A stretch of DNA of 64,000 nt from positions 2,914,001 through 2,978,000 of the forward strand of contig JAYWIR010000018.1 in NCBI GenBank assembly GCA_036172245.1, written 5' to 3'. Positions 16,001-46,500 of the stretch are shown in pieces (within the stretch, counting starts at the first letter, position 1; each line of letters begins with the position of its first letter). The notes under the pieces are model-generated. The model was not told the origin of the DNA and ran no database searches. It was given only the letters and a program-made list of their open reading frames with translations. The translations under genes and the position numbers were made by a program. The stretch comes from Raillietiella orientalis. Its lineage: Eukaryota.

Positions 16001-19000
16001 TGAGTCTTCCATCAGGAACATCTATTACTAGGTGAGTTCCCATGACGGATTCCCCTAAATCGGTGGGGGAATCCAGTGAGTGCTTGTTAGGTATCCATTT
16101 GATGGATGAGAAGAGGGGAGAAGACCCGGAAATGCAACAAACACCACCGAGCGAGCAGAAAGGTTCCCTGGGGTGCCTTTGGATCTGCAGCAGGGGTCGC
16201 TAGTATTTCAGAGCAGTCCATAAAGTCCAATCGCGTGCTCAAAGGGGGATCCGGAAGTTTCCACATCCCTGGCTCCTCCCTTCCTTTCTTTCTTCTCCCT
16301 CGGGGAAGCAGGAACCAGATGAGCAAGCAGAGACGAAGGCCAGAAGACCTCCATACGACTAGGCGTAGAGTTCTCCAGACCTATTCCTGCCCTCAACTAG
16401 CTAGTCTGGTTTCAAGGCGCCGAGGAAGCTCCCCGTACCATGCGCGCATGGCCACCTCTTGGTGTATGGCCACACGCACGCACCGATTGACCTCTTCAAC
16501 GGGATCGACTTGGTCCACCTGAAGGCGATTCGCCAGACTCGTCCTCCCTCGTAGCTCCTCCCCGCGGGGGACCTCTCAGAGCCGCCGCCTGTGCTGGGTT
16601 CGCACGCGCCCGAGTCGACTTGAAAGACGGAGTCGTTTGACAGGAGTATTCACGCTGCCTCTTCGGCAGGCGCGAACCGCCTCCGCGAACCACGCGCTCG
16701 CTTCAGTCTCGGGCAGAGCAGGGAAAGTCTGCCCTTCGTGAGCAGTGGAAGGTTCCCAGCTGGACCAGATTGGAAGGCTCGAATCAAGACCCGGTGTGCG
16801 TATACGAACAGGTGCTGCGTGTGCATCGCAAACACACCCGGAAAGGAAATTCGATCTTGCAGGAGGGCTCGCATAACCTTCAAGGGAAGAGGATTCTTCT
16901 GTTGACACGAGTGGACTTCCCGTGGACTTCCCAGGAAAGTGAACTCTTCCATTAATTGAGTCGTCGTGTGTGGGACCCTCCGAAACGAGAGCGGGAAGGT
17001 TGGACCCCGCAGGGTCAAACTTCAGACCAGGGCGATTCTGAAAGGCTTTCGCGGCTTAGTTCGAAAGGCAGTCGCTCCCACGGCAGCCAAGCGAAAAGGG
17101 CGGAGGGCCGGCCATCGACGACGAACGCCGCCGCTCCGGTTCCTGCTTTAGGATGGCGGAAGCGAATGGGGAGAGACCTTCGGAGGAGGAAGCGAACCGG
17201 CAGCCGGGTGGCCTAGGCGGTGACTAAGGGCAACAGCAGACATATGTCCGGACAAAAAAGAAATCTCGGATGCCTCTCTGGATGCCATCCAGGAGTTAAG
17301 GTGTGTCCCGGGTGATCGCGAGACACGGAAGTCTGCCCCCTCCCCCCGAGAAGAAACACGAGAACATGTACACGTGTACATACGCATACATCTGCACGGA
17401 TTTTCTTTTTGCTTTCCGGCCTAAGTGCTTCCTGCTTCTTGAGGATGAATTCCTAGTCGGGAACAGAAGGAGGAGACATTTCTGTCCACTCCGCCATCAC
17501 CGAAACGGAAGCACACACATAAAAATCAGTTAGACAGTTTGGCAACCCACACCAAGTGTAGGGGGGAGGGTAATGGCGAAGAATCGGTCACACGGGTTGT
17601 TTCCTTCGAAAGAAGGCGCGCCCTGCACGTGCGCGTTTTCTCGAGCCAGCTGGAGGGACAGAGATCCGGAAAAGAAGATTCAGGAATGCACCCGCGCGCA
17701 CCACGCCTCGAGCTGCGACCACCTCTCTGAAGAACAGTCCAAACGAAGTTTTGAGCAGCATTGTGAGCAGCGATTCGCAAAGAGCAGCGCACGATCATTT
17801 GGAGCTATCAATTCAGCACGTGTCCTACTGACCAGAAGTCCTTTTTCAAGGTCAGCAGATGATCGAGCGGCTTCCCGCTTCAACAGCTCATCACTGAAGT
17901 CTGTTGCGCGGAGACCTCTCGTGCTGCGTGCGATTCATCACACCTTCTTCACTCAGGCGGAGCGGACGGAGGAACGCAGTGCGCCCGAGGACTCTCAGGT
18001 CTTGCCACACAAAGTTGCAAAAAGAAAAGCGACTGCAAGTTGCCACGAAACGACTCCGTGAAAACATCACTTCGGGGAGGGCTTAACATCTCACGCGCCC
18101 TGATCGGCCGGAGCCCCTCCCTTCCTCTCTCCCATCACGAAGCTCTGTTGGAATGGGACTGCATCAATCTCGTCATGATTTTGCGTGCCACCTCGTCATG
18201 ATGGACTGGCCCTGAGGACGACCTCTCTTGCTTCATTGCTCGATAGAAAATGACGAGCGGAAACAAATGCATTCTCCTGAGGGAACGAAGCCTATGCAGA
18301 TGACCGATGAGGATGACGACGGCCACGGTAACCCTTCTCGACGAAAGCAGCAAACAGGTCCGATCAAATCCTCTGGGCCGCTGACACCTCTCGAGTCAGA
18401 CGAGCGGCGTACGGGATGCCTGGCAGATCCCGTGCGCCGCACGGCCATCTCACCGGAGACCAAAAGAAAGAGCACAGGGCTGTTGGGCGGGATGGCATGA
18501 ACCTGGGCCTTCCGCGCACACCACTCCCCGACAGCCCTCGAGCCCTCTCGAAGACGTTCCTCTTGCTAATCGAGCCGAGAGATCGTCCTTCCTTGCCGCG
18601 CGAGTGTAACAGTCGACAGCCGCTTCCGGCCGTGCGTCGGCGACGTGCGCGCACGTCAGAAGTGCGATAAAGTCGCTTCAGGACGGTGAGCTCCTCCCGT
18701 GCGAGGAGAGGAAGCCACCCTGCGGGACTTCCTTCAGCGCGCCTCGTGTGACCTTCCAGGGTCCATAGCCTGCCATCCCGAAAAGCCGTCCTCACTCAAG
18801 ACAGGTGCACGTCATGTGCACCCGGGGGAATTCTGGAGTGGCATCAGACGGCAAAGCGCATTCCAAAGAGCAGTTTACGCCCGAGAGGGTGCCCCGCCAC
18901 TGAGACTACGAATGAATTCCGGATGAGGAGCAAACGGGTTGGTAAATATACAGTCGCGCAACGTTCACTCGAAATATCTAATTAAAGCGATCTCCTAGAC

Positions 19001-22000
19001 GACCTCAGTGTGATTTCTTCTCATTTGCGTGAGAGCCCGGCAACCATATCAGTGGGCCAGGATGCCCTCTTGCCGGCTTCGTTCCGTAACTTTTCCCCTC
19101 TGTTTATTTTGTTTCTCCTTTTGCTTGCCGCCCCAAAATTATCGTTAGCAGAAAGAGGGTGCGAATCTTTTGCCCTTGGGCGACGCAGTCCCAGGAGATT
19201 CCTTCCGATGTCGTGGATGCACTCATTGCAGATCAGCGTCAGCCGGCAAAGAGCATTCCAGAGAGCTGCTAGCGAGTAGCTGGCGCCTGAGAGGATGCAC
19301 CATCACCAGAACCGCAGCTGAATTCCAGAGGAAGCGTTCAAGACAGTCAGAAATGAGGGAACATCAGCTCGGAAGATGTGCCGCTAGCCACGACCAAGCC
19401 TTGGTCAGCACATCCGTAAAAGCACCAGTGCCGCACCCGAATAGGTCGTCATCCTGCAAGAGATGCACCCATTTCTGGGTGCGTCGTGGGTTTCGTCCCT
19501 GAGAAGAATCGACACCCAGAAGTGAGCGTCGGTTCTTCTCAGGCTGGGATTAGAACCCTCAACAAACATGTTGTCCGCAGACATGTTGGGCGCGTTGGCG
19601 CAGCTACGCCAGCACCGTCAATTCTGAGCAGCCCCCTGCAAAGACTCTCCAGGCGAAATTCGACCAGGATGAAAGAAGACGCGAGAGGTCATCCTGCACA
19701 ATGACCGCTTACTGGCTAGAGGGAAGAAGAAGGGAGCATCCGTGAAGAGTAGCATCGCTCCGTCCACTGCGCCACACGTGTTCGCCTCCGTCAGGCTTTT
19801 CGAATCCTCGGACCAACGCAAGTCCGAAAGAGGACGGTGCAAGTCACGCCGGAGATGATGAAGACGTGGCCGCGGTGAAGTGTACTTTCCACCCACAGCA
19901 GGGGATGAGGACTTCGGTGTTCCCAGGTGGAGCCATTTTGCTGCTCGAGTTGGAGCGCACGCAGCAGACACGGGACGGATTTCCCACGGGGGAGCTCCCT
20001 CCGCCTCTTCTCGTCCAGCCGTGACTCGTCGCTCAGCCTCCCTCGCGGACAGTCGTTGGCCGACCTTCGACCCGTAAGGCGTCCGCACCCTCCACACACC
20101 CCGGCCGCGCTCGATGTTGGCGCACAGACAGCGTCCTCTTCGCGTTTCCCCGCCTGCGGGCGAGCGGTCCCCAAGTGCTCGGCGCACCTGGACTCGCCTA
20201 CCACCACGGCTCCCACCCACCGAAGCGGACGCTCGTCTGTCGCCGAACAGCACGCCCGGTTCCCGCATCCGGTCTCCTGTCTTGGTGGCTCTTCTTCCGA
20301 TGCCGGGTTCTCGCGCGCACCGACCTCCGCTCTGGAGAGGCGGGTCCGGCCGCCGGCTGCCGTCCTCCCCGAGCCACCGCTCGCTTGGCGGGGTTGACCG
20401 AACGGGAGACGATCGTCTGCCTCCGTGGAGAAGAAGCTCCGCACCTTCAGCGACCGACAGAGTGCAGAGACCTTCTGCCGGTCCGCGCCGCTTCCTGCAG
20501 GAGCCGCTTGCACAGGCAAGAGAGGATTTAGCCGAGAACAGAGATGAGCTGAGTGATGCTTCTCGAAACCATCCGATGCTGCTCGCTTGCGTGAGTTGCT
20601 TTCCTTTCCGGACAGCAGCACAGCCCACAGGTTCCCTCTTTCACGCTGTTTCCAGGAAATGCTGGGAACAACGTGAAAGAGGCGATATCTTGTTTCTATG
20701 GAGAACGCGCTCTCTGCAATGCTTTTTGCTCATACACGAGGCTGCTACTCGAAGGTGATTTAGCGTGTCGTTGTTCGGTACACCAGCTAAACCGAAACAC
20801 ATACACACAAAAAAAACGGGAGACCTATCAGGAAGTCAGTTGGGTCAGTCACACTTCATATTATGCACGTCCACGGAACACGCTGAAGCAAGTAAATGCA
20901 GGATGGACCAGCAGTGGGCAACCTGGCTCTCGCGAATGCAGACTCGACCCGATGGGGTCGCCCACCGCAGAGATCGACGACATCGAGGCTCCTGGACAAG
21001 AAGAGCTGTAGCTGCTCCCCAAAAGCTGTTTGCGCAAGACGTTCCCCTGGAGTTTGCCGGGGAAAATTGAGAAACAGACCGGAATCTCCTGAGATCAGCT
21101 CAGGCGCTGTAGGGGTTCCAGAGAAGCTGACGCCCGCATTGGCAGCGAGGTAGCGCCAGGTGTTTCGAGCTCGAATCCCATCGAAGGAAACGTGAGTTGC
21201 GAGTCCTCCCCTCCCCTACAGGAGGACCCTGCTAGCTTCGGGCGCGGCACTGGTGGAAACCGGATGCCCCGTTGACCAGCCTGGATTAGAAGTCGACCCT
21301 CCGAGGTCCTTCCAGGACATCAAGGGTTCCCCTCCGGTTGTGAAAATGGACCCATCCCCTCCTCGGGCGACACTCCATGGCATGCCATGGAGCTGCTTGG
21401 GACTCTCTCCAGAGTATCAGTAGCGCGCTGCTCCTTTTGGGGAGTGCCCTTCAGAGAAATCTGGAAGCGTCCCTTCGGAGCTCGCTTTAGTGGAGTAATA
21501 AGCAGTAATAAGCAGTTCCCTTGATCGGGGTCCCTCCAAAAGGCCCCTCTGGAGAGGTTCCTTTCGTGTTCCCTACCAAGAGTGAGAGGAACGGACTCCT
21601 TCTCCCGGAGCCTTCCTGGATTCATAGGGAGGTCCTCCCCCCTCCCCAGGGGTACCCCTTATAACTTGAAGAAGAGTGACATGCACCCTCGGGTGGTGCG
21701 GACAGCGTTTAAACGCTTCTTGAGCTCCCCGTGAGGAGGCAGACGGTTCTTCAGCACTTGGCGAACCAAAAAGAAAAACTGAAAGAAAAACAGCGAAAAC
21801 AGAAGAACCCGAAAGGATTTCCACCATCCTAGGCCAATAGTAACGATCTTTCCATGAGGTCGCTACTGACCTTTTATATGTATATATATAAAACTGGTCT
21901 GATGGTACTGAAAGAACTGCACTGAGCCTCTGCCATGAAGAGAAGTCAAGTGAGGAAAACGCCAGGTGCGCGTAGCGCGGTATCCTTGCGTTGCGCCCTC

Positions 22001-25000
22001 GCCCAACATTTCCGCGGACTCTTTTGCACTGCTCCAACAGCCTCGCCCTCAGATGTATCAGATTCCAGGAGACGGATCTCCAACGTCCCCCCTACCGGCG
22101 GAGGTGCGGAGACGTGGATGATTGAGTGGATGGACACGAGCCATCTCGCGAATGACCTGGGAGAGTACGAGATGATAGCGAATCCACGTGTGCTGAGTGC
22201 TCTTTGCCGAAGGGATGGCGCAACCGAAGGCGGGTCCATGATCTGCGCCTGTCGGTACGTTGAGGGAGCAGTCGCAGTCGTGCAAACGAGTAGGTCCGTC
22301 TGCTCATCCCGGAGAAAAATTGACGAAACGAGAGGAATGTGGCAGAAAAAAAATTGCAAAATCGAAGAGCCGCATCTTCGCCGCCGAACCTGGGATCCCA
22401 TCGGCAGATGACCATCAGCATCCACCGGATGATGGGATGCCGCCCCCTCCACGCTTGCCTCACCAGGGGATCGGGAAATGCCGTGCCTTCTTGCATGCAC
22501 TTGACGGCCCAGTATGTCAAAATAGAAAGTTTCCATCGGGCGGATTAGTTCGGCGCGACGATAGCTGACCGACGTGTCCGCCAGACTCCTTGCTACCAAG
22601 GCAACCAAATGACCTTTGCCGTCGAGCCATCTTTCCTTGTCTTGCCTTTCCCGTGAATCCCGGCTATGGTTCGGTTTGCAGACAGTCCAGCCACTCTCGA
22701 GTAATAGGTTTCCATGTGTTTCCAGTTGGGAGTTCTTTGCTTTCTTGCGGGACGACCGGGATCAACCGAGACGAAGAGTGAAAGCTTTGCAGCATCGATA
22801 CGCCACCGTGAAAATGGATGCTTTCGCTTGCTTGGACAGAATCACAAATGTGTATGCGCGTTTTTTTGTTTTTTTTTCTTGGAATGTGAGAACACTTCTG
22901 GGGTGTCCATTGCTTTCCTGTGCACCGCCTGCTAACGTTCAACGGGCACTGGAATCGATCAGCTCACCATTCGGCGACCTTTGTGCTATCCATTCACAGG
23001 GACATCGGTACTCAGAGTCTCGTATTCTCCTGCTGGCGTTTTGTGCACCACCGTTTTGCAGGAATTCTGCATTCGCGTGCGTTGGGCTCGAAGATCTCGA
23101 GTGCTTCACCTCAAAGGTGCCCTGAACTTGTCTTCGAGGCGAAAACGTGCTGGATGCCCGGTTCGCGGTTCCTTCGGCGGATCTCCAGCTCGCCCTGGCA
23201 AACAGCTCATTCGGTAAAATGCGTCAGCATACTTTCCCATTAGAGAAACCATCGCGACCGCTATCTGCGGGGCATCCCCGAGTCCAAAAAAACAAATACC
23301 CACGCATGGGTGATTTTGATCGATGCTGATGATTGCGATAGCAATCAGTATTATATTTCTCCTGCGTGTTCATCCAAAGGAGATGAACCGCCAGATTCCT
23401 GTAGCTTCACCCGGAGCAATCGATCCCCTTCCGTTCCTCATTTTGCTTCAGCGCAGAGATGAAGAAATTTCCGCAGAAGACGGACAGGTTTCTCTGGCCG
23501 TCGGAACGAGTCGAAAGATCGGCTCATCTCCGGTGCTCGGCCATCCATTGCTAGCTCCTATCCCACCGTTCACCGAGATAAAGAGAAGGGGGATACTTCG
23601 TTTGAGGTTGACTTTTTCTTAAGACACGAAATCTCTGCCTCTCATATTTAGAAGACCAGCAGATCGTCGTTTCTGGTCCTCAGTCCAGAGTCTGGAGTGA
23701 GGGCACTCAACGCGCCACGGAGACGGCAGGCTCCTGCCAAGCCATGCAGATGAAACCGTTGATTCAAGCAACAAGAAGCGGAAGGAAGAGCCAAGTAAAA
23801 AATGAGCTTCAGTTCACCTTAGAGGTTCCCTGGGAATTTTTTCCGTTGTTGAGTTGCAGCCACACACCCCACTTGTGCTGATAAACAGTAAGTTTGTTCC
23901 AGTGGTCGTTGAGGATCTCATTGGACGAACTGACCACGCCAGCTCCCGAGCCGCAGTCGAATCTGGAAAAACGCGAATTCTCGCTGTATTTGACGTCAGG
24001 TAGGTCGAATCACTCCTGCAGGATTTTCAAGTTGCCGGCAACACAACACTGAGCAAACCAAGAAGCACGCATCTTTCGATTTCTTACTTCTGGATGTTCA
24101 TCCACGCTGCTCCCGAGAAGGAATCGCGCGAGAGGATTCGTTCGAGGTGGAGAGGACTGCTTGTACGGGAACAGGAGAAGGAAAGTGGCAGAACACCCTC
24201 AACCTCCGTCGAAAGGGTTGAACCCGTGTTGCTTCTTAAGCCCGGATCGTGCGTGGTCACGTGGGTGCAAGTTTGCTGCTTTCTCGCAGGAAAGCGCCCG
24301 CTCCTTATTGATGCGCCCGCTGCTCCGCTTTGGGAGATGACGAATTAGGGTGTTCGCGTATCCAGGAGCAGAGCACAACTCGCGGTCCCAAGCGCTAGGC
24401 GGGAGAGTCCGGAGAGGCTTGCGAGGGATTGCGTTGATGTGAAACCGCACGCTCGTGATGCGACTGCATGCAGGCCGGCAAGTCATTTTGAAATCATAAC
24501 GTAGGTCGCGACAGCAATGATTCCACGAAATATCTCGAATGCAGCTGACTGATGTTACACGATCGTCTGCAGGCAATGTCGTCAAGCATCGTGTGTGTTG
24601 CGGAAGTTCTCCACACTGTAAAAGAAATTGTCAGAATAAGCAGCTTCTGAAAGAGATGTTGCGAAAAGCGTTACTGAACTACGACAGCATCCGCTCCAGT
24701 CACAGATAGAAGATCAAAAAGACGAAAAAAAAATAAGGGTAGGTGGATTTGCGTACTCACATCTTGAAGTGCACGTGCATTCCTTTGGACCAGAATGTGT
24801 GCACCAGAAATATTCGCCCCAGCCTCTTAAACTTGACCTCTTCAACCTAAGAAGAGGTTCAAACATCCTTCCCCAAAAAGTCTCCTGTTCCTATCGGAGG
24901 TCGCTTGTCCATAACGCGCTCTCCTTACTCACTTTGTTTTTTTTCGCAAAGAAAATCATTGCACGAATTGACGAAGAGATCGATTTTAAAAGAAAAGTTG

Positions 25001-28000
25001 GATGGTTACTCATATGCATGTGTAGCAGCTGCCAACTGAAGATTGAATGAATTACCAGAAAACCCAAGTTGTTAGCTCGTCGTCGGAGATGCGATGTGCT
25101 GCACGTTCGCTACCGATAGGGAGAAACAGAAAAAAGGGACCTCTAAGTGATGTGTTCAGCAATAAAAAACCTTCCACGCCCCTGTTCCTTAGATGATTTT
25201 TTTTTTTTTTAAGAACATTCTAAAAAACTGCGGTTCATTCGAACGACGAACTGCAGGTGATCGCTCTCGACAAGCATCTTCATTTAATCAATGTTTCGGC
25301 CGGATCCGACAACTTTTCGAACGACATCCATCGGAGGGACCTTTTCAGCGTCCTCGTCGAAAACCCGGCAGTTCCTCCGCGGTACCAGAAAGCTGTTCGC
25401 ATCGTGAAGCCTGCCACCGGATTCGACAGTCCAAAACAGCAGCAGGCTCGCTGGACGCCTAGAACACTCGGAAGCGCCAGCATCCCTGAAGCAGAATTCC
25501 AAGAATCGAACTCCCGAGTATCCAGGACACCTGCAACCACCTGCTTAGAATTAACCCACTTCGATTTAACGCGTTGCGGGAATCTAGGATTTGGTAGGAC
25601 AAGAGGGACTTGATGGCCCCGAAATGAACCGTGGGACCGCGTAAAGTCACGCAGTGGACGCGTCGGTGAGCTGAGGCTGGGAATCCGCTCTGATAGGAAA
25701 GAGTACATGGAAAACTGCATCCCGGAAATCACTGAAGCGATCAATGACACACCGGCTTGCCTTCCATTCATCAACCGGTACCAAGATTCAGAAAATGTGT
25801 TTATGTTCCCATGCATTCGAATGGCACGCCACTCTGTCTCGCGGTTAAGCATGGCGCTTCTGTGCTGAGAATACGTGCAAGAAGCAGAAGGGATGGGCAG
25901 GAGAAAATGCGGGGACCAGAGTCGCAGCTGGGAGCTGTCACCACCACACGCTCGTTACCTGAACTCCACGAGCCTGTTCCTCACGACGATGGCAAAGAAG
26001 TCTCCTTCGAGATCCGGGAACTGAGACGAATACAGGAGAACTCCTTCCTTGAAATCCAGGTCGGGTTTGAACTCGATGGAAACCTGGATGCCGGCTTGCA
26101 GCTGCTCTGTGATTCGAAACTCCATCCAGGAAGTTGCACGAAACTGCGGCATCACAACATCACCTTCTGAAACGTCCATCAGCACTAATAGTTGGGAATT
26201 CAAAGTGGGGGGCGAAGACTATCAGAAAGAAAGGGGGTGAGGAAGTGGAGGGTCTGGGTCGAAAATCATGACAGAGTGGGTTATCGTGCACCCTCCATTC
26301 ACACGAGTCGATAACGGGGACTCAATTTGTAACACGAATGCTTTCAAGCGGGAGAGAAAAGCGAGTTCAGGGACTTCGGACAGGAACCGAACGAGTAACT
26401 CTGCTGGGATGGGTCACTGAAAAGTTGGAATTTCACGAGCCTTCCTAAGCTTTCGATGATTTTGAAAAGAGGATGCTGGAGAACCAAGAGTTTTGGGTTC
26501 GAATCCCCACTTGGAGGACCGACGTCGAGAATGGAGGGTGAGTCCTGGCTTTCGAGTCCTCCCTCCCTTGCAGGATGACGCTGGTTGGCCTATTCGGATG
26601 TAGCAATGATGGAAGTCGGAAACCGGATGCCCCCGTTGACTGTTCGAGATTGAAAGTCGACCTTCGGGGTCCTTCTGGAATCACGGAGTCCTTCGGGGTT
26701 CCCCTCCAGTCGAGAAAATGGAGCCTACCATCGCCTACCATGGAGCTGGTTGACTGATACCTCTCCAGAGTGTCAAGCAGTGTGCTGCTCATTTCGGCGA
26801 GCGACTCTTCACGGGTGGCGAAGATCGATCTAGGGCTCTGCTCCCGGTTCAAATGAAATTTTGAGGAAATTCGCCCTTCGGGAAAAATTCTGCTGCAACG
26901 CTCGAGAGCGCGCGCCAGTGCGCGGGCTGAGACTGGCGTGGTGGTGGTCTTCACGTGACACAACTCTTTCCTGGTAAAATTCCAGACTCGGTTCCGCTCA
27001 GGTGACTTGCTTGCCCGTGGTCAGCGATCCCGAGTTCGACGGTGGTCGATCACTTTCGATCAGCGCGGCGCCATGCGACGTTCGAAACGAAGGGAAAGTT
27101 CGCAGCCGAAGGCGACTTTCAGGAAATCGCCAGGGCGGCAGATGGGAAAGGAAGGGACACCTGTTGGGCGCAAATTTTCGGAAACTTTGGAGAAGCGCGG
27201 CGGGAGCCAGGGAAAATCCAGCAACTTCCAGGGATGCATGAAAGACGCGGGGTGCGCGGAAGAATGGCACCACGGACGTGCTCTCTTTGACGTCCGTCGA
27301 CGGAAAGCTCGAGAAAAGCCTTTTTTGTGTGTTTCCTTCCTCTGTTGTTGCTGTTAATCATGATGCAGCGTTCGTTGCAGAAGAAGCATTTGCATAGCCA
27401 TGGGCACCTTGAAATCCACAGAACCCAAATTCTACTTCTTTCTACTTTTCTATTTTATCTTTTTGTTCACTTGTCTTTTTTTTTTAAACTGAATTTCAAT
27501 TTTCAAGATTCATCTAATCATTCATTTGCGTTTCATATTCTATTTTTAAAGTTGTTCATTTGTTTTTTTTTCATCTCCAAAGGATTCACTTGTGTCTTTG
27601 AATGGATACTTGTAGGACGGAGTGGAACCTGGAGTGTAGAAGGTGCTGGTGGCAGAAAGCAATGTATGTGCGATGATCGCTAATGTACTAACACCTTTGC
27701 ATATTCGAAGCATTGAAAGGAAAAAGAAAAGTACTCAACGGATTTCGCAGGCGTCTCCTTGGTAACCAAAAGCGCAGATGCATCGTTGTTGCCATCTGTC
27801 AAGCCTGATCTCTTCCACGCAGTGACCTTTGCCGCACTGCAAAGTGCAGTTGCGTTCCTCTGTTGAGTTTTGCACCAGAGGGGAAAAGTGCCGACTGTCG
27901 GAGGTCCGTTCGCCTGGCGACGCTTCCGGGTCTTCCGTCAACTTAATCTCCACGTAAGCGTCTTTCTCATACACGAGGCTGCTCGAAGACGACTCATAGG

Positions 28001-31000
28001 TCAGTGTGTTGTTGTTTGGTACATCAGCTAAAAAGAACCACACAAAAAAAAATAAAACGTGAGACCTATCAAAGAGTCAGTTGGGCCACGAACACTTCAT
28101 ACTTTGCACGTGCATGAAACACTCTGAAACACGTAAATGCAGGGATCTCGCGGGACGGACCAGCAGCGGGCAACCCGGCCCTCGCGGCTGCAGACTCGGC
28201 CCGACAGGGTTGCCCACCGCCGAGACCGACAACATCGAGTCTCCTGGGACAAGAAGCCCCACCGTCATCGGAGCATGCTCAATTAATGACGAAAAACATT
28301 AAGGAAATTGGTTCGGAAGGTGGGGTTGTCCTGTGGCATAAACGGCGATCCCACATCCCGAAATTGATTTTTACGTCGAGCTGCGCGTAGGTCACGGCGC
28401 TGGGAATTTCCGAAGCAGCAGTCACTACAAGCAGTGACGACCCACACATCAAGGAGGAAGGAAAAAATGCAAAAATCATTAAAACATCATGAATGCACGT
28501 GAACGTATACATACGTACAGACAAGCATCCACAGATAAATGCACACATTTTGCATGGTTGAATTTACATTTGCTACGACCGTTGGTTTTCCGTTTCTTTC
28601 GCCCGAAAGAGCATCATCATGACAATTCTTTGCGCTGTCACTAACAGAAAGGCGACAAGCCATCATCATCCCATCATTATAATGCGTCGGCCGGGAAGGA
28701 TTCGCATGTGGCTGACACGAAAATTCTAATGATCCGTTGTGAGTTTCATGCCTGGTAACGCTTCCGGATTGTGCAAGGGAAGCCGTTGGAGAGGGAAGGA
28801 TTCTGCTACCCGCTTGGCAGACACTTCCAGGCGGGAGGTTGCATGTTCACCCGGTCGTGCCAGGGATTTCTTGTAAAAGATGCAGCATTCCTATCAGAAA
28901 ATCTTCCAGCCTTTCTGTACAGAAAGTGCAGTGCCAATGCAGAAAGACTTTACAGGCGGGAATCTGCAAGAACGTCTGTTGTGGGACAGGCTCGCGTTGT
29001 CATTGGTCCATGAGGTCGACGAGGTCGGCGTCGACGCGTGTCGTGCGTCCACATTATGGGCGCTCACGAAACGCGTTGGACCTGCTGCTCGTGGTCCACG
29101 GACAGCCCGTCGTGCCAGAGAGGGCCACTCATCGCTGGCATCTCTCGTACTCAGTAAGAGCGAATTTGATGAGGATCGGTACTTTGCTTTCAGAGAGCGT
29201 TCATCGAAGAACACACCGAAGAACTACGTGGATAACCAGCGTTTCGCTGGAATTGGAAGCGCGCCTGTCGTCTCCCAGCATGAGGACCTAAAAACTGTGC
29301 CCAACGGATTCTATGGATCCCACCACATGAACGAGCACTGGCTTCGCCTGATGGCACCCCAGGGAGGGTTCCATTAAAGAGGTGGATCGCAGTTTCGTCA
29401 CGACTTCACGATTCGCTTGCAGCAAGAAATGCAAGAGAATCTTACTGCTATTGGAAGAGCAAATGCGGGAACCTATTTGAGGCTAATAGTGCAATGGAGC
29501 ATCTTGGGTTCAGAAAGAGACCATTTTTGGAGGAAAACAGAAAGAAAGGAAGGTGATCTGTGCGCACGGGGAAGACCCGGATATCCGATACATTGCTCTG
29601 CTCTTCTATCTCTTAGACGTTGGGAAGCGCACCTGGAAGAGGAACGCAGAATCGTCCTGTTTGGTCTCTCTGTGGATCCATCGCCGAATTCAACATTTCG
29701 CAGTATCGATCTGGCCCTATTCTGGGCATCCGGTCTGCGAAGGATCAGTCTTCTGCGAGTGTTGATACTCACGGGACTGCAGAGAACAGATGATGGGAGC
29801 TGTGGATTTCGACCATCCGCTTAACCCTGGGATCTCGTCGAAAGACAAGCAATTGCTATGGTTTGGGGAAGCAGAAGATCGATCGCTATTCAGAAAACAT
29901 CGAGGGTTGTGAGCTGCCCCTGTCGTGCGTGGCTGAGTGAGACCTCGGCATGCCGAACCGCACGTGGATTTTTCCACAAACTGCCACGCGTTTCGCTCCG
30001 GAATTCGATACTCCGAGGGTGCTGGCCACAACGCTTCACGTGGTCATCATTTTTTTTTTTTTCTTCTTTTGATATCATTCACATGGTCATTATCCATGCA
30101 GTTCTTCACATCTAGGACGCACATTCTTCTCCTTTTGGTTCTTGAGGAACTCGCGTCTTTTTCAAATTCTGTCGGTGTGCTAAGACCGAGAGTGGAAAAT
30201 TCACTCGCTATCTTGACAATGCCTTTTTTGAAAAAAATAAAATAAAAAGTAAAACGTAAAAAAAGGCATGAATTTTTCGGTTTCCCTCCTCTGCAGTGGG
30301 TACCTTCGCGAGCAAAGGAACGCAGAGATTTCGCTCGTCAACTGGTCCGCAATCCGTGTCCATCTGCATAACCCAAACAGCGCGTGACGTCACAATCCGG
30401 CCGTTTGCGCTAAATGTTTTTCTAAGTAGCTCCAAAATCAATGGGACCGAAACGAGTCCCTCTGGAGCTTCGATTCCTTCCGGGACACGAAACGGAATCC
30501 AGGGAAGGAGTCCGAGGAGGGGAGGGGGAGGCGAAGGGAAGACTTCAGGGAAAGCGAATCACCACATCTTAGCCCCGCGAGCGCTTCCGCAAAGAAGCCA
30601 GTGCTCCCTTCCCTGGTCGCTCACGACAAGCTCAGAGGGAGATGCCGGGAGGACTTCCTGAGGCAGTCGCACGTGGAGTTTTGCCAGCCCCTGTCCTGGT
30701 CGCTCTTCCGACGGCGTCTCCGGGTTCTCTCGTGCTCGCGCACACACCGACCGCCGCTCTGGAGCACGGCGCGGACCTGCTCCTCCTCCCCTTGCAGCGC
30801 ACTCCTTGCTGGTTGTCCTCGTCAGCAATGGAACGACTGCATCTTGCGGAAGCTGACCGAAGGGACAAGCGCGTTTCCTTTTGCTATCTGGAGGGGTCTC
30901 AAGGCCAGTACGGTTCTAGAAGAGCGTGCAGCCAGTCCGTGGTTTTTGCAAGGTGGCTCGGGGTGGTCAGCGGAACGAGAGAAACCCTCTCTAAGATCAC

Positions 31001-34000: not shown

Positions 34001-34507
34001 CCCTTGTGCAAGAACGCCGGCGGAATGAAACGGAAACGAAAAGGTATTAACGAAACGCAAGAGAGGTCTTCGGGTTCTCTTCGATGACGCCCGGCTTTCT
34101 TTTGAACGTACACTCATCACAGAGTTGCAGAGTGCCAAACTGAATCTTCAGGGTGCAAAGCGTCGTTTTCTGACACTGTGTGCGTAATTCGCCTCCTAGT
34201 GACGCCGGTTTATAGGTGGATGGAAACGGTATTGACTAGCATTACAGATTGAGTGCCTGGGGAAAGTATCCGAAAGAAGAACCGACTTTGGATTTTCGGC
34301 TCTTCAGACAGCAGAAATCCTTTGAACTGGTGAGGGGATTTCCGATGGCTCCAAATGGCCGGAGACTTGCTGCGCGCTTTCGGTCCGAAAATGGCGCCCC
34401 TTGCAGAGCATTCCTTCTACAACGTGGGGTATGATCCATCAAACAAGATTACTTGCCATACTGTATGTATCTCATTCTACACATACATAACGTAAACACA
34501 CACACAT

Positions 34508-34544
<37 letters not shown>

Positions 34545-37500: not shown

Positions 37501-40500
37501 ACGCTGCATTCGGGTGCGGCACTGGTGACTGATGCCCCCGATGAGTGGACGGCATTGGGGGTCCTACGAAGAAACTGAAGGGGTCAGTTCCCTTTGGTGT
37601 TCCCCATCGGTTTTGTCAAGGAGACATCGGAACCCCGAGGTCGATTCATCATCCCGGAAGATGAGCGGCAAAAGTGCTCCAACTACCGGTCGCCTGCGAG
37701 TCTCTTGGGATGGCGCCGGGAACCTCCCTTCACGTCTGCCTCGTTTTCGCTCCGACCCAGGCTGCCACGAGCACGCCCGGGGAGAACGATGGACACAGGG
37801 AACATGAAAGCCTCCAAAATTTGGGTGCCTTCTCTCGGAACGCTTACTCCCGCGTGGGGGCGGAGACGGTTCGGAGGACGGAACAAGGAAGTGGAAGTCA
37901 TCCGCTCCGGAGTCACGGGGAGAGGGCGTATCGCCGGGATACCGCACGGTTCCACTCGACGCCCCCTCGGTTCCGGAGCCCTCGTCGCTAGGTGACGGTT
38001 CGTTGTTTTGGCTCGCAGGGCATGGAGCCACTGCGCGACCGGATCGTGCTCTGGCTTGTGCGGGGCACGCCACTCCCTTCCGCCCCTTCCCCTCCTCGGA
38101 CGCGTGAAAGGAGGCAGCAGCGGTGCTCCCGTCCCGCTGGAGGCCACCGTCCTCGCTCTCGCTCGATGCCGCTCAGCCGACGGCCGGTGAGCCCTCTCCC
38201 GAGCGGACCGAAGCTGTGCGGGAGGAACGCTAGATGACAAAAGGGCACACAGAGCTCTTCGACACTACCCACGCTACCATCGAGGGCGCATTAAACCCTT
38301 CAAGTTAACGTATGTCCGGAAGGGGACCATTCTATGAATCCCGGAAGGTTCCGAGGAGGGAGTCCATTCTTCTTACTCTAGGGAGGGAACCTTTCAGAGA
38401 AATCTCGACCTGACTGTCTCCGGAGGAAAGGATCCTCCCCTCGTTTCCACCTCTGAAGAGAACACCGAAGGGATGCTTCCTAATTTCTCTGAAGGGTCGC
38501 TCCCCGAGGGGGCGGCTCACCTCTTGACACTCTGAAGCGGTGTCAATCCACCAGCTTCATCGTATGCGATGAAGAGTCCTCTCTCGAGGGCGAGAGACAG
38601 CTCCACTTTCCCAAATGGGGCAACCATGAAAAGAAGCGGCTCCTTGATCTTTTGAAGGACCCCTGGATGGCCAAATTCCCATCCCGGCCACTCATCGGAG
38701 GCATCCGGTTTCCATCCATGCCGCTCCCGCAACCTGTGATAGGCCCGCTGGATTCGGGCCATCCTGTATGTGTGTGTGTGAAGGGCAGGACTCGAAACCG
38801 ACGACGCACCCCCTCCGTTCTCAGCGTCGACCCTTCCCCAGGAGAGATTTGAACCCACAGCACTCGGTACCGCGGTCTCCGCCCGCGGTCGCACGGCCGC
38901 GAACGCGGGTCATCTCGGGGATTGCACTCCCCTCCGCTTCCCACACACGTCTCGGGATGCTCCGGGTAGAAGAGATGCACGACTCCTCTCAGCATCTCGT
39001 GTGCCCTTGCACAGGCACGAATGGCTCTACGGCGCCTTCCGCCTCCAGCCAGGAGCTTCCCGTTTATGTCCGAAGAGTCGTTCGGCGCGCTGCCCGTGGT
39101 AATGGGAGGGATGGGGGAAGGCACTTTTCCTCCCTCGTCTCCTCTTCTAGGAATTTTGCCTCCGCACCTGCCAGCGGGAATTTCCCTGAGTCCGGCCTTC
39201 AGGAAACATCCCGACCCCTTCTGTTTGAGGACCGCGACGGCGACTTTTTGGAACTCGGGATTCCTCCTTCCCTCAGGACTCCGCTCCGGGCTAGGAAGGA
39301 TTTAGCGCGAGAGAGGCACAGCTCTCCTTGGGCAAGGTGACACGGACGGAGCCGTTGGCCGTCGTGCGAGGGGGCCTCCCTGGGTCCCCTGCTGGCAGGA
39401 AAGCGGGCTGGAGTTGTTCGACCCTTCCCTCTCTCCCGAGATGCGGACCGCCACCAGCGATAGGATGCTCCTACTCCAAGTGGAGTAGGCGAAAGGTAGG
39501 AGCTCTGATTTCCAGACGTAAGCTGGCTGGTCGTTGAAAGAGGGCTGGGGCGTGTCGGGCGCTCGGGGTGGGAGCGCCCTACGGGTGGAAGGGAGGAGGC
39601 TGCCTTTGGGCAAACTCCCGTTGCCTGAGCTTCGCCGCTGGCGGTTTTCTTTGGAGGGCCGACCGTGCAGGTCTCGTCTGGAGGGTGTCCTCCTGGACTA
39701 ACCCGCTTCGCCCCATTTTTTTAGTCCACTCGAGAACCAGGTCTGCTTCTCACGAGCGTGTCTGAGAATTTCTGAATCTTCGGGAAGATCGATCCCTGTA
39801 CTCCGAGCAAGCCGACAGTGATGGTGCGAGTTGGCACCAGGAGGGAGGGATCTCCACGCTTTTCCTTCCTTTTCTGTGGCTCCATCCGGATCGAATGCTC
39901 CTGGAGTAGCCGCTTGAAGTACCACCCCACCGCTTTCGCCTCCCGTCGCTTCCCTTCCGCTCAAGGTCGGCACCAAGCAACGCACACATTGTTTGTCATG
40001 ACCTACACTGCGGTCAAGTCCCGTTTTCTGGAGCAGGGATGGCGAAACTGAAAAAGCGTGTGACATCCAAAAAAAAAGCACCCCAACGAGGGTCAACTGA
40101 TCTGGAAGGTTCGTGTGATCTGGAAGGCCCGTTTCCAGGCAGCACTTGGCGACGTCGTGCTTGGGGTTGCCCCAGCGCGTCGTCATCCATCTCTCCGGCA
40201 CGCACTTGGTACGCTTCCAGAACGACAAAATGACGACTTCCCGTCTGCTCGATGCAACTCGCGGACGAAGACGTGCCTGGTCTTAACTGCTCGAAAGCAC
40301 GCACGCACGCACTCACGGAGGCGAGCGTCCGTTTCCCGGGACGACCGCTGACGTGGCGCACCGGCGGTCTGACTCTCGGCGAGGGAAACGCAGCGCCAGC
40401 CGGAGCTCCTCGGAATGCCGGTGGATTCCGTCGGCGGCGGGAAACACGGCTGGCTGTCTCGAGGCAAGGGACGTCGGTCGCTCCCCAGGACGGCAGCTGC

Positions 40501-43500: not shown

Positions 43501-46500
43501 ATAATTCATAGAAAACTTCCATCTTAATAGAAAATTGCCATCATGAAAAATTGTGGTCTTCGGATGCTTTTGTGCCACGTGGATTTTGTGTGGTTTCTGA
43601 AACCCGCGCGTAGCACGGAATTCTCGCCACATCAATCGCACGGTGACGGCCTTATGGGAAAGAACGCCCCATTTTACGGGCTGCTCCAGAGACAGCGCTT
43701 TGATAATCTAAGTCACTGACATTCTTGCAACTGCTCCAGGGTAAGATTCTGGACCTCCGTCCTTCCATCTGCTGCAGCGCTCAGCAGCACATTCAATCTA
43801 CGGTTGAGGTCAAAAAAAGAAAAAAACTTTCTTTGAAACGATTCTTCCGTTCACTTCATCCCTCAACAATTCCCGCCCATGTTTTCTTGAACACGAGTAT
43901 CCTCGAAGAGCAGAAACTTGGAGTAAAGATGGCCTCATGATTTTTGCGGCATACCAGTGATGTATGCCAAGATCGCCTGCTTCCCTGCGACAACTGCCAC
44001 TTGCACGTTGCTCGTCTGAATCCTCTATTGCCTGTGCGAGCGGCTCCCGCAGGAAGCGGCGCGGACCAACAGGAGGTGTTTGCACGCTGTCGGTCGCTGA
44101 AGGTGCGTAGCTTCGCTTCTACGGGGACAGACGATCGTCTCCGGTTCGGTCAACCCTGCCAAGCGAGCGGCGGCTCGGGGAGGACGGCAGCCGGCGGCCG
44201 GACCCGCCTCTCCAGAGCGGAGGTCGGTGCGCGCGAGAACCCGGCATCGGAAGAAGAGCCACCAAGACAGGAGACCGGATGCGGGAACCGGGCGTGCTGT
44301 TCGGCGACAGACGAGCGTCCGCTTCGGTGGGTGGGAGCCGTGGTGGTAGGCGAGTCCAGGTGCGCCGAGCACTTGGGGACCGCTCGCCCGCAGGCGGGGA
44401 AACGCGAAGAGGACGCTGTCTGTGCGCCAACATCGAGCGCGGCCGGGGTGTGTGGAGGGTGCGGACGCCTTACGGGTCGAAGGTCGGCCAACGACTGTCC
44501 GCGAGGGAGGCTGAGCGACGAGTCACGGCTGGACGAGAAGAGGCGGAGGGAGCTCCCCCGTGGGAAATCCGTCCCGTGTCTGCTGCGTGCGCTCCAACTC
44601 GAGCAGCAAAATGGCTCCACCTGGGAACACCGAAGTCCTCATCCCCTGCTGTGGGTGGAAAGTACACTTCACCGCGGCCACGTCTTCATCATCTCCGGCG
44701 TGACTTGCACCGTCCTCTTTCGGACTTGCGTTGGTCCGAGGATTCGAAAAGCCTGACGGAGGCGAACACGTGTGGCGCAGTGGACGGAGCGATGCTACTC
44801 TTCACGGATGCTCCCTTCTTCTTCCCTCTAGCCAGTAAGCGGTCATTGTGCAGGATGACCTCTCGCGTCTTCTTTCATCCTGGTCGAATTTCGCCTGGAG
44901 AGTCTTTGCAGGGGGCTGCTCGGAATTGACGGTGCTGGCGTAGCTGCGCCAACGCGCCCAACATGTCTGCGGACAACATGTTTGTTGAGGGTTCTAATCC
45001 CAGCCTGAGAAGAACCGACGCTCACTTCTGGGTGTCGATTCTTCTCAGGGACGAAACCCACGACGCACCCAGAAATGGGTGCATCTCTTGCAGGATGACG
45101 ACCTATTCGGGTGCGGCACTGGTGCTTTTACGGATGTGCTGACCAAGGCTTGGTCGTGGCTAGCGGCACATCTTCCGAGCTGATGTTCCCTCATTTCTGA
45201 CTGTCTTGAACGCTTCCTCTGGAATTCAGCTGCGGTTCTGGTGATGGTGCATCCTCTCAGGCGCCAGCTACTCGCTAGCAGCTCTCTGGAATGCTCTTTG
45301 CCGGCTGACGCTGATCTGCAATGAGTGCATCCACGACATCGGAAGGAATCTCCTGGGACTGCGTCGCCCAAGGGCAAAAGATTCGCACCCTCTTTCTGCT
45401 AACGATAATTTTGGGGCGGCAAGCAAAAGGAGAAACAAAATAAACAGAGGGGAAAAGTTACGGAACGAAGCCGGCAAGAGGGCATCCTGGCCCACTGATA
45501 TGGTTGCCGGGCTCTCACGCAAAAGAGAAGAAATCACACTGAGGTCGTCTAGGAGATCGCTTTAATTAGATATTTCTAGTGAACGTTGCGCGACTGTATA
45601 TTCACCAACTCGTTTGCTCTTCTTCCCGACACGAATCCAAGCATTCGGCATCTCATTTTCCTGACAAGCAAACTTCAGAATCAGAGTTTTTTGTGTGTGT
45701 TTGTTTGTTAGGATTGCCGAATGACGAGTATTGAAAATCACGCTAGAGCTTCGTCTGTTCCTTTGCATTTATTTTGCAATTTCTTTTTTTTTACTCAGCA
45801 AAAACGTTTGTTCGCCATTGTGTGACCTCCGCAAGAGACTACTACTGCACTTCTACTCAAGAGCATGAGAATGCAAATGTATTCAGTGCATATCAAAGCG
45901 GGTTTCAGGTCGCACTGCTATGTTTCTCAGATTCCGACGGATGAATTTAGATATCAGAATTGTTCCTTGTAATCCTGTGCAGCTGAAAGGTAAACATCGC
46001 TACGCGTCGCTCTCAGGATGGAGAAGGGATGGTGTTTTTCGGGTCGTGTACCACTCATCGCACCCCTTGTCTGTCCCTATACGAACACAAAGGCGAGGGA
46101 CTGATTAACTCAGTCTGCTACTCGAAAACAGGCTTGCAATATTCAAATCCTTTCTGCATGTCCAAACACAGAGCGGAGTAGCCAATTCTTTTTTATTTAT
46201 AGCCAAGTACCTTCATAAGTAGCTTCCTGCCATGGAGCTAATTACTCCTAAGTGAGCATGTGAGGTTACTCGGACGCACGTGGTATGCGTCCCAGCTCGA
46301 GAAGCAAAATGGCGCCACATGGGAACACCAAAGTCCTCATTTCCCTGTTTACGAAACGAGTTCCCCTCTCCGCACCGCTGGATTATCCGTGGCGCGTTGG
46401 TACGTTCTTCATTCACCCGTGGTACGTTTTATCCGTGGCACACGCGGAGTACCAAAATTGCCTTATTTTCAACTAAAACATGTCTCTCTCGAAAGATAGT

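What the first reader, a model, noticed from the sequence alone, without database searches (positions are those of the whole stretch)
18928..45619. 1.6-kb inverted repeat with a homogenised core brackets three coding exons: possible inversion switch or circRNA/exon-skipping module
Seen: 18928-20537 and 44010-45619 are reverse complements about 23.5 kb apart, lying in two different introns. Across about 18971-20375 I spotted only two mismatches (19023, 19625) and no indels, whereas the outer ~45 bp and inner ~160 bp are only about 85-90% identical, with a sharp boundary. The arms enclose exactly exons 27740-28027, 25959-26166 and 23818-23962 (641 nt; EGF plus most of LamG1). Established: an identical core with diverged edges is the signature of recent gene conversion in an older duplication, and long intronic inverted repeats promote back-splicing, exon skipping, A-to-I editing and ectopic inversion. 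Inference: pairing could give a 641-nt circRNA or a frameshifted skip (phase-1 donor to phase-0 acceptor), and DNA recombination between arms would flip three exons and inactivate the gene.
Basis: partly seen in the sequence, partly recalled or inferred. Interest (0 to 1): 0.72.

Follow-up and report, generated by a model that had tools for sequence, protein, structure and literature searches.

The report
Intronic inverted repeat with homogenised core
Two inverted copies of a 1.6-kb non-coding segment lie in two introns of a pikachurin-like gene; their middles are almost identical and their ends are old and diverged, which is the usual mark of gene conversion between repeats, and nothing here shows a regulated switch.

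Summary
Arms 18918-20537 and 44010-45629 are reverse complements with no indels. The 1405-bp core has 2 mismatches and the 215 bp of edges have 28 (Fisher P 2e-23; K2P 0.0014 against 0.144). The arms lie in two introns of a minus-strand pikachurin-like gene (EGF plus three LamG domains). They bracket exactly three coding exons totalling 641 nt, between a phase-1 donor and a phase-0 acceptor. The arms carry no Pfam domain, Rfam family, tRNA or clear transposon ends, and do not match E. coli or plasmid DNA. My best reading (about 0.6) is an old inverted duplication whose centre was recently homogenised by arm-to-arm gene conversion. Such a pair is a substrate for inversion by homologous recombination, and in the pre-mRNA it would form a duplex of about 1600 bp that could favour back-splicing or exon skipping. 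None of these consequences could be tested: no genome is held, no sequencing run was listed, and no relative of the arm turned up in any collection. Copy number, assembly accuracy, inversion and circRNA therefore all remain open. A programmed switch is unlikely. This is a new member of a known kind, of moderate to low interest.

The parts
18918..18970 (.). Left arm, outer diverged edge (53 bp, 6 mismatches to the right arm)
18971..20375 (.). Left arm, homogenised core (1405 bp, mismatches only at 19023 and 19625)
20376..20537 (.). Left arm, inner diverged edge (162 bp, 22 mismatches, no indel)
44010..44171 (.). Right arm, inner diverged edge (reverse complement of 20376-20537)
44172..45576 (.). 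Right arm, homogenised core (reverse complement of 18971-20375)
45577..45629 (.). Right arm, outer diverged edge
27740..28027 (-). Bracketed exon 1 (288 nt; linker plus an EGF-like Cys pattern; phase-1 acceptor)
25959..26166 (-). Bracketed exon 2 (208 nt; start of LamG1)
23818..23962 (-). Bracketed exon 3 (145 nt; middle of LamG1; phase-0 donor)
51075..51191 (-). Upstream flanking exon (calcium-binding-type EGF). The donor at 51075 is phase 1. The acceptor position is read from the sequence.
15567..15755 (-). Downstream flanking exon (end of LamG1). The acceptor at 15755 is phase 0. The 3' end is approximate, taken from the tblastn alignment.
46286..46347 (.). Isolated 62-bp fragment (weak similarity runs to about 46414), 85% like arm-internal 19899-19959 / 44588-44648. 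It lies about 660 bp outside the right arm.
18841..18926 (.). Outer flank of the left arm that resembles arm-internal 19236-19332 (66% over 97 columns; score 27 against shuffles 12.9 +/- 1.5)

Best explanation
This is a pair of old inverted duplicates of a 1.62-kb non-coding segment. One copy sits in the 23-kb intron upstream and the other in the 8-kb intron downstream of three exons of a pikachurin-like gene. The edges record the age of the duplication (K2P about 0.14). The central 1.4 kb has been homogenised recently, and perhaps repeatedly, by non-allelic (arm-to-arm) gene conversion. Conversion cannot reach the ends, because a tract needs homology on both sides. The pairing that converts the core can also resolve as a crossover, which would invert 23.5 kb with three exons and break the gene. 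The pair is therefore best seen as a substrate for rare or recurrent deleterious inversion, not as a device. In the pre-mRNA the two arms could form a duplex of about 1600 bp, which might favour a 641-nt circular RNA or a frameshifting skip. What is shown: the repeat, its mosaic identity, its non-coding nature and the exon geometry. What is inferred: conversion as the cause, and every consequence for DNA or RNA.
For: Repeat and mosaic. The core has 2 mismatches in 1405 bp and the edges 28 in 215 bp (Fisher P 1.9e-23; K2P 0.0014 against 0.144). The boundaries of homology are sharp. The edge differences behave as neutral non-coding substitutions: 17 transitions to 11 transversions and codon positions 10/7/5, P = 0.42. 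The arms show no sign of coding or of a known RNA. No Pfam family at E <= 0.01 appeared in any of the 343 minus-strand ORFs of 60 aa or more, which between the two arms cover both arm strands. Rfam gave 0 matches at gathering score and 0 at E <= 1, and 0 tRNA genes were found. The arms are not bacterial or vector DNA. The gene is intact in the assembled orientation and colinear with pikachurin-like proteins. The same kind of mosaic is in print for human inversion-mediating repeats: 7-kb inverted duplications of 94% identity containing a 782-bp block of 99.9%, with breakpoints in the high-identity part (passages of PMC3961182). A 1041-bp inverted pair suffices for recurrent gene-breaking inversion in F8 (passage of PMC7098248). 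The predicted RNA duplex is -3631 kcal/mol with 1595 pairs, against about -950 to -980 for three shuffles.
Against: There is no outgroup, no second genome and no reads, so conversion is inferred from one haplotype. A donor elsewhere in the genome cannot be excluded, because copy number is unknown. A 1.4-kb identical tract is longer than the single conversion tracts quoted in PMC3961182 (a few hundred bp, rarely over 1 kb). Several events or one long event are therefore needed; the two core mismatches split the core into identical blocks of 52, 601 and 750 bp. The edges have no indel among 28 substitutions, which is slightly fewer than I would expect for old neutral DNA (my expectation, not a computed test). 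Pieces of arm-like sequence beside both arms (18841-18926 and 46286-46347) hint at a repeat family or a more complex origin.
Confidence: 0.6

Rival explanations
1. The arms are two members of a dispersed repeat or non-autonomous transposon family. On this reading the mosaic comes from the family's own history (recombinant master copies, or conversion from third copies) and not from exchange between these two arms.
For: Homology ends sharply at both ends of a discrete 1620-bp unit. Arm-like fragments lie outside both arms. The same introns hold an older interspersed family in 5 copies, so repeats do land here.
Against: No transposon protein domain appears in the arms or in any ORF I scanned in the window. 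I saw no terminal inverted or direct repeats, poly-A tail or convincing target-site duplication, and found no tRNA-derived head. Two copies of a young family should be uniformly alike to their very ends, where transposons are usually best conserved. Nothing like the arm was found in any collection I searched.
Confidence: 0.15
2. This is an assembly or polishing artefact. On this reading the repeat is real, but the near-identity of the core was made or exaggerated by reads of one arm being used to correct the other.
For: The question cannot be checked: no genome is held and no runs were listed. Repeats of 1-2 kb are a known weak point of polishing (my own knowledge).
Against: Reads from cores as diverged as the edges (about 13%) would map uniquely, so polishing could only erase a small true divergence. 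The contrast between core and edges would remain. Two core differences were kept and both arms join unique flanks cleanly. The 23.5-kb spacer carries correctly ordered, correctly oriented exons, which a foldback chimera would not.
Confidence: 0.1
3. This is a selected RNA- or DNA-level module. On this reading the perfect pairing is kept because it drives a 641-nt circular RNA, a regulated frameshifting skip, hairpin-derived small RNAs, or a reversible inversion of three exons.
For: The arms are by far the strongest complementary pair in the introns around these exons. [quoted passage not shown]
Against: No RNA data could be reached. Conversion alone explains the identity without selection. Matches far shorter than 1.6 kb suffice for back-splicing (a 13-nt match in the abstract of PMC8330042), so length and perfection are not needed. 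No recombinase was found. The upstream 3' splice site is transcribed 7.5 kb before the downstream arm, so ordinary splicing has a head start (inference).
Confidence: 0.07
4. The core is kept alike by purifying selection on a functional non-coding element present in both copies, not by conversion.
For: A 62-bp piece of the core is also kept at 85% in a third place, 46286-46347.
Against: A divergence of 0.14% over 1405 bp beside 13% at the edges would need stronger constraint than coding exons show. No Rfam family or coding signal was found.
Confidence: 0.03

Closest known systems
Inverted low-copy repeats that mediate polymorphic or recurrent inversions by non-allelic homologous recombination (human HsInv set, PMC3961182)
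   Same: Both are an inverted pair on one chromosome with a kilobase-scale block of more than 99.8% identity inside older, more diverged duplicated sequence. The spacer of tens of kb falls within the 5.1-226 kb range of those inversions (passages).
   Different: Here the arms are short (1.6 kb), both lie inside one gene, and neither inversion nor polymorphism has been observed. The organism is an unidentified invertebrate-like eukaryote.
F8 intron 1 inversion (int1h-1 / int1h-2)
   Same: A repeat of about 1 kb in an intron recombines with an inverted copy and breaks the gene (passage of PMC7098248). The predicted consequence of a crossover here is the same.
   Different: In F8 the second copy lies outside the gene, 140 kb away. 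Here both copies are intronic and 23.5 kb apart, so an inversion would flip three internal exons and not split the gene in two.
Reverse-complementary matches in introns flanking circularised exons
   Same: Complementary sequences sit in the two introns that flank a set of exons on one transcript. Such matches promote back-splicing and skipping of those exons (abstract of PMC8330042).
   Different: Known effective matches can be as short as 13 nt (same abstract). This pair is 1.6 kb long, 23.5 kb apart, and has no junction evidence.
Sex-chromosome palindromes kept alike by arm-to-arm gene conversion
   Same: Inverted arms are kept nearly identical by intrachromosomal conversion (recalled; PMC8327919 was seen only in a search listing).
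   Different: Those arms are tens to hundreds of kb, carry genes and have short spacers. This pair is small, non-coding and intronic.

Membership tests
Inverted low-copy repeats undergoing concerted evolution / NAHR substrate | Two copies in inverted orientation on one DNA molecule | tested here: met
Inverted low-copy repeats undergoing concerted evolution / NAHR substrate | A highly identical stretch of at least 1 kb at 97% or more (the criterion used in PMC3961182) | tested here: met
   The pair is 1619 nt at 98%, and the core is 1405 nt at 99.86%.
Inverted low-copy repeats undergoing concerted evolution / NAHR substrate | Mosaic identity: a near-identical tract inside older divergence | tested here: met
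   Fisher P 1.9e-23; K2P 0.0014 against 0.144
Inverted low-copy repeats undergoing concerted evolution / NAHR substrate | Low copy number in the genome | not testable with these tools
   No genome is held and no runs were listed. Within the 64-kb window there are only two copies plus small fragments.
Inverted low-copy repeats undergoing concerted evolution / NAHR substrate | Both orientations of the spacer seen among individuals or reads | not testable with these tools
Intronic reverse-complementary matches driving back-splicing or exon skipping | Complementary segments in the two introns flanking the exons, on the transcribed strand | tested here: met
   The arms lie in introns 28028-51074 and 15756-17 to 23817, around three exons with canonical AG/GT sites. 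The predicted duplex has 1595 pairs.
Intronic reverse-complementary matches driving back-splicing or exon skipping | Back-splice or skip junction present in RNA | not testable with these tools
   No RNA holder was listed.
Transposable element copies | Transposase, reverse transcriptase, integrase or another element-encoded domain | tested here: not met
   Pfam found nothing in the arms on either strand. A non-autonomous element is not excluded.
Transposable element copies | Terminal repeats, tail or target-site duplication | tested here: inconclusive
   I saw no terminal inverted repeats, LTRs or poly-A tail. Only short 4-6-nt coincidences occur near the ends, by my own inspection.
Transposable element copies | Many dispersed copies | not testable with these tools
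   no hit in the metagenome, viral or protein collections
Programmed DNA inversion switch (invertase or recombinase type) | A site-specific recombinase gene at or near the invertible segment | tested here: not met
   No recombinase domain appeared in the 343 minus-strand ORFs of 60 aa or more, or in 143 of the 176 plus-strand ORFs of 85 aa or more.
Bacterial insertion sequence or vector contamination | Similarity to E. coli or plasmid DNA | tested here: not met
Pikachurin (EGFLAM)-like host gene | N-terminal calcium-binding-type EGF followed by three LamG domains separated by EGF domains, colinear with named pikachurin-like proteins | tested here: met
   Pfam matches on exon ORFs. Colinear tblastn of P0003. 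P0003's relatives are named pikachurin-like by their sources. Identity to the window's exons is only 26-64%.

The most novel reading that the evidence does not exclude
The pair is not a passive by-product. On this reading the near-perfect 1.4-kb pairing is kept, by conversion under selection, because it acts in the pre-mRNA of the pikachurin-like gene. It would loop out three exons to give a 641-nt circular RNA and a frameshifted skipped isoform that tune the dose of the protein, or it would yield hairpin-derived small RNAs. The occasional DNA inversion would then be a tolerated cost.
Probability: 0.06. Interest if true: 0.55.

Novelty: new member of a known kind. Interest (0 to 1): 0.3.

Why it matters
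If the reading is right, this locus is a compact natural example of concerted evolution between intronic inverted repeats, with both conversion boundaries visible to within a few bases. It also marks a predictable weak point of the gene. One crossover in the core would flip three exons that encode an EGF domain and two thirds of LamG1. The same arms could make a circular RNA. That gives simple PCR and RT-PCR tests. It does not open a new question: inverted repeats with homogenised blocks, inversions mediated by them, and circularisation helped by intronic complementarity are all established.

Tried and rejected
- **Whole genome:** none is held for this window.
- **Earlier findings of this scan:** nothing by place, sequence or relatives.
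- **Arm in public collections:**
  - The 340-aa arm ORF had no relatives.
  - A conserved 26-38-nt arm motif gave 0 hits in metagenome contigs in two scans and 0 in viral contigs.
  - E. coli genomes and plasmids gave no match.
- **Rfam:** 0 matches.
- **tRNA genes:** 0.
- **Tandem repeats:** none in the arms.
- **Gene naming:**
  - Exon 27741-28025 against longer proteins found nothing.
- **Arms as a decayed copy of the exon at 28027 or of its pseudo-exon copy:** short 21-nt and 17-nt matches suggested this, but local alignment did not beat shuffles, so I rejected it.
- **Extended weak homology beyond the arms:** none was found, apart from 46286-46414 and 18841-18926.
- **Arms as the terminal repeats of a 26.7-kb composite transposon:** rejected, because the interior holds only host exons colinear with orthologues and no element gene.
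- **Mutation shower at duplication breakpoints as the cause of the diverged edges:** rejected, because the substitutions are of mixed types and not strand-coordinated.
- The exons were then scanned singly by reference.
Full report
**The observation**

The repeat finder reports a single long inverted pair in 17000-47500: 18918-20536 and 44011-45629, 1619 nt, 98% complementary, with 23474 nt between the arms. blastn gives 98.15% identity over 1623 columns.

A global alignment and an ungapped position map (pR = 64547 - pL) list every difference. There are 30 mismatches and no indel across 18918-20537.

| Segment | Left-arm coordinates | Length | Mismatches | Identity |
|---|---|---|---|---|
| Outer edge | 18918-18970 | 53 bp | 6 | 89% |
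| Core | 18971-20375 | 1405 bp | 2 | 99.86% |
| Inner edge | 20376-20537 | 162 bp | 22 | 86.4% |

- Beyond both ends the similarity drops to background within a few bases.
Everything else is as described.
- The uneven spread is far beyond chance. Fisher's exact test of core against edges gives P = 1.9e-23. None of 100000 random placements of 30 mismatches left a clean run of 750 bp.
- Kimura distances are 0.144 for the edges (17 transitions, 11 transversions) and 0.0014 for the core, a 100-fold contrast.

**The host gene**

The window is eukaryotic. No whole genome is held for it.

On the minus strand, Pfam finds EGF and laminin-G matches in a colinear series of ORFs:
- EGF at 51031-51210.
- A weak EGF-like match at 27738-28076.
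- LamG pieces at 23812-24009 and 15492-15845.
- An EGF-type match at 9111-9653.
- LamG at 4731-4973 and 3702-4280.
- EGF at 3406-4080.
- LamG at 2925-3443.

A profile-free search of 1.84 billion representative proteins with one LamG ORF gave 72 hits at E <= 1e-10 and none at E <= 1e-30. The best hit is 36% identical, so no close relative is on record.

One hit, P0003 (853 aa), aligns colinearly with the window by tblastn:

| P0003 residues | Window coordinates | Identity |
|---|---|---|
| 43-80 | 51192-51079 | 60% |
| 238-300 | 26149-25958 | 38% |
| 300-348 | 23964-23818 | 53% |
| 348-411 | 15758-15567 | 34% |
| 412-466 | 9356-9186 | 32% |

Further LamG and EGF exons align near 5-3 kb.

- P0003's relatives are named pikachurin-like by their sources in scorpion, spiders, horseshoe crabs, ticks and insects.
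- The nearest solved structures to P0003 are agrin, neurexin-1-alpha and pikachurin.
- The window's exons are 26-64% identical to these proteins, and no lineage is clearly closest.
- The window has 53% G+C and a CpG observed/expected ratio of 0.97, so it shows no CpG depletion.

**The exon geometry**

- The three exons 27740-28027, 25959-26166 and 23818-23962 have AG acceptors and GT donors. Joined, they read as one open frame of 641 nt.
- The upstream exon ends at 51075 before a GTGAGT donor, in phase 1.
- The downstream exon starts at 15755 after a polypyrimidine tract and AG, in phase 0.
- A cysteine-pattern scan finds only four EGF-like units in the whole window, all in the exons already named. 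The scanned ORFs show no further EGF or LamG piece between the arms and the flanking exons.
- A short, poorly conserved cassette exon in the 23-kb intron cannot be excluded.
- The arms thus lie in two different introns, 28028-51074 and 15756-23817, and bracket exactly these three exons.

**What the arms are**

They carry no recognisable gene.
- All 343 minus-strand ORFs of 60 aa or more in the window were scanned against Pfam at E <= 0.01. The left arm's plus-strand frames are covered through the right arm's minus-strand ORFs. Nothing in the arms matched.
- Of the 176 plus-strand ORFs of 85 aa or more, I scanned 143 at E <= 0.001 and found 0 families. I left out the 33 that start before 10588. 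The 148 plus-strand ORFs of 60-84 aa were not scanned.
- Rfam gives no match in the window at gathering score, and none in 18700-21100 at E <= 1.
- No tRNA genes were found, and there are no tandem repeats in the arms.
- The 22 inner-edge differences fall on the three codon positions 10/7/5 (P = 0.42), as expected for non-coding DNA.
- I saw no terminal inverted or direct repeats, tail or convincing target-site duplication (and reading).
- The arm does not match E. coli genomes or plasmids, so it is not an insertion sequence picked up in cloning.
- Its longest ORF has no relatives in the 5.8-billion-protein collection.
- A motif from the core has no exact match in metagenome or viral contigs.

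Two small oddities remain.
- A 62-bp piece of the core (19899-19959) recurs at 85% identity at 46286-46347, about 660 bp outside the right arm.
- The 86 bp just outside the left arm (18841-18926) resemble 19236-19332 inside it.

Whether the unit began as a non-autonomous element or as a plain segmental duplication cannot be decided from one window.

**The most likely mechanism**

Uniform decay cannot give 0.14% divergence beside 13%. Four explanations were weighed.

1. *Old inverted duplication, recently homogenised by gene conversion between the arms* (about 0.6).
   - The ends escape because a conversion tract needs homology on both sides. This fits every feature seen.
   - It has a close printed parallel: human inverted duplications of 7 kb and 94% identity with a 782-bp block of 99.9%. 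Refined inversion breakpoints there always lie in the high-identity part (passages of PMC3961182).
   - One caveat is tract length. The same paper quotes tracts of a few hundred bp, rarely over 1 kb. The core therefore probably reflects several events, and the two residual differences divide it into identical blocks of 52, 601 and 750 bp.
2. *A dispersed repeat family with its own mosaic history* (about 0.15). It cannot be tested without the genome.
3. *Polishing artefact* (about 0.1). Polishing could only erase a small true divergence, because cores as diverged as the edges would attract reads uniquely. The mosaic would survive even then.
4. *Purifying selection on the core* (about 0.03). It would need constraint stronger than that on coding exons.

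**Consequences (all inferred)**

- **DNA.** The pairing that converts the core can resolve as a crossover, inverting 23.5 kb and three exons and breaking the gene. A 1041-bp inverted pair does this recurrently in human F8 (passage of PMC7098248). The assembled orientation is the intact one.
- **RNA.** The arms would pair over 1595 bp at -3631 kcal/mol, against about -950 to -980 for three shuffles.
- **Back-splicing and skipping.** Reverse-complementary matches in flanking introns promote both in C. elegans (abstract of PMC8330042). Against a strong effect here, the upstream 3' splice site is transcribed 7.5 kb before the downstream arm. Weaker complementary pairs from an old repeat family also lie in the same introns.
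- **A regulated inversion switch.** Nothing supports it. No recombinase domain was found in the ORFs I scanned.

**Limits**

- This scan's earlier notes held nothing.
- I did not consult any paper supplements.
- Copy number, assembly accuracy, orientation polymorphism, circular RNA, exon skipping, editing and small RNAs are therefore all untested.

**Verdict**

The gene-conversion reading is well supported as an inference. The functional readings are open, and the switch reading is unlikely. This is a new member of a known kind, with interest about 0.3.

Noticed in passing
window 20721-21003 (minus strand): A 77%-identical direct copy of 27958-28256: the intron tail, the AG acceptor and the first ~70 nt of the exon at 28027. 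The copy has a 4-nt deletion in the exonic part, so it reads as a decayed pseudo-exon. It lies 184 bp inside the left arm.
   Followed up: partly
window 13434-13873, 21191-21788, 26483-26811, 31439-31750, 38253-38912: An old interspersed repeat family of about 300-500 bp, 64-73% identical, with five copies in both orientations, all in introns of the same gene. Some pairs are inverted across exons and would be weaker competitors for RNA pairing. No tRNA-like head was found.
   Followed up: partly
window 46286-46347 (weak similarity runs to about 46414): An isolated fragment 85% identical to a 62-bp piece of the arm core. It is centred on an AAAATGGC-type motif with a short ATG-led ORF whose similarity to the arm ends after about 11 codons. 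Its meaning is unknown.
   Followed up: partly
window 18841-18926: The outer flank of the left arm resembles arm-internal 19236-19332 (66% identity with an 11-nt gap; local score 27 against 12.9 +/- 1.5 for shuffles). The right arm has no such flank. It hints at a more complex origin of the left copy.
   Followed up: partly
whole window: The window has 53% G+C and a CpG observed/expected ratio of 0.97 with no depletion, and introns of up to 23 kb. The best protein relatives reach only 26-64% identity per exon. Together these suggest a poorly sampled invertebrate lineage without germline CpG methylation.
   Followed up: no
window 20635-20682: A local 21+21-nt palindrome (90% complementary, 6-nt loop) between the left arm and the pseudo-exon copy.
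   Followed up: no
window 14958-15054 and 31614-31715: A 100-bp direct repeat at 82% identity that overlaps one copy of the old repeat family. It is not explained further.
   Followed up: no
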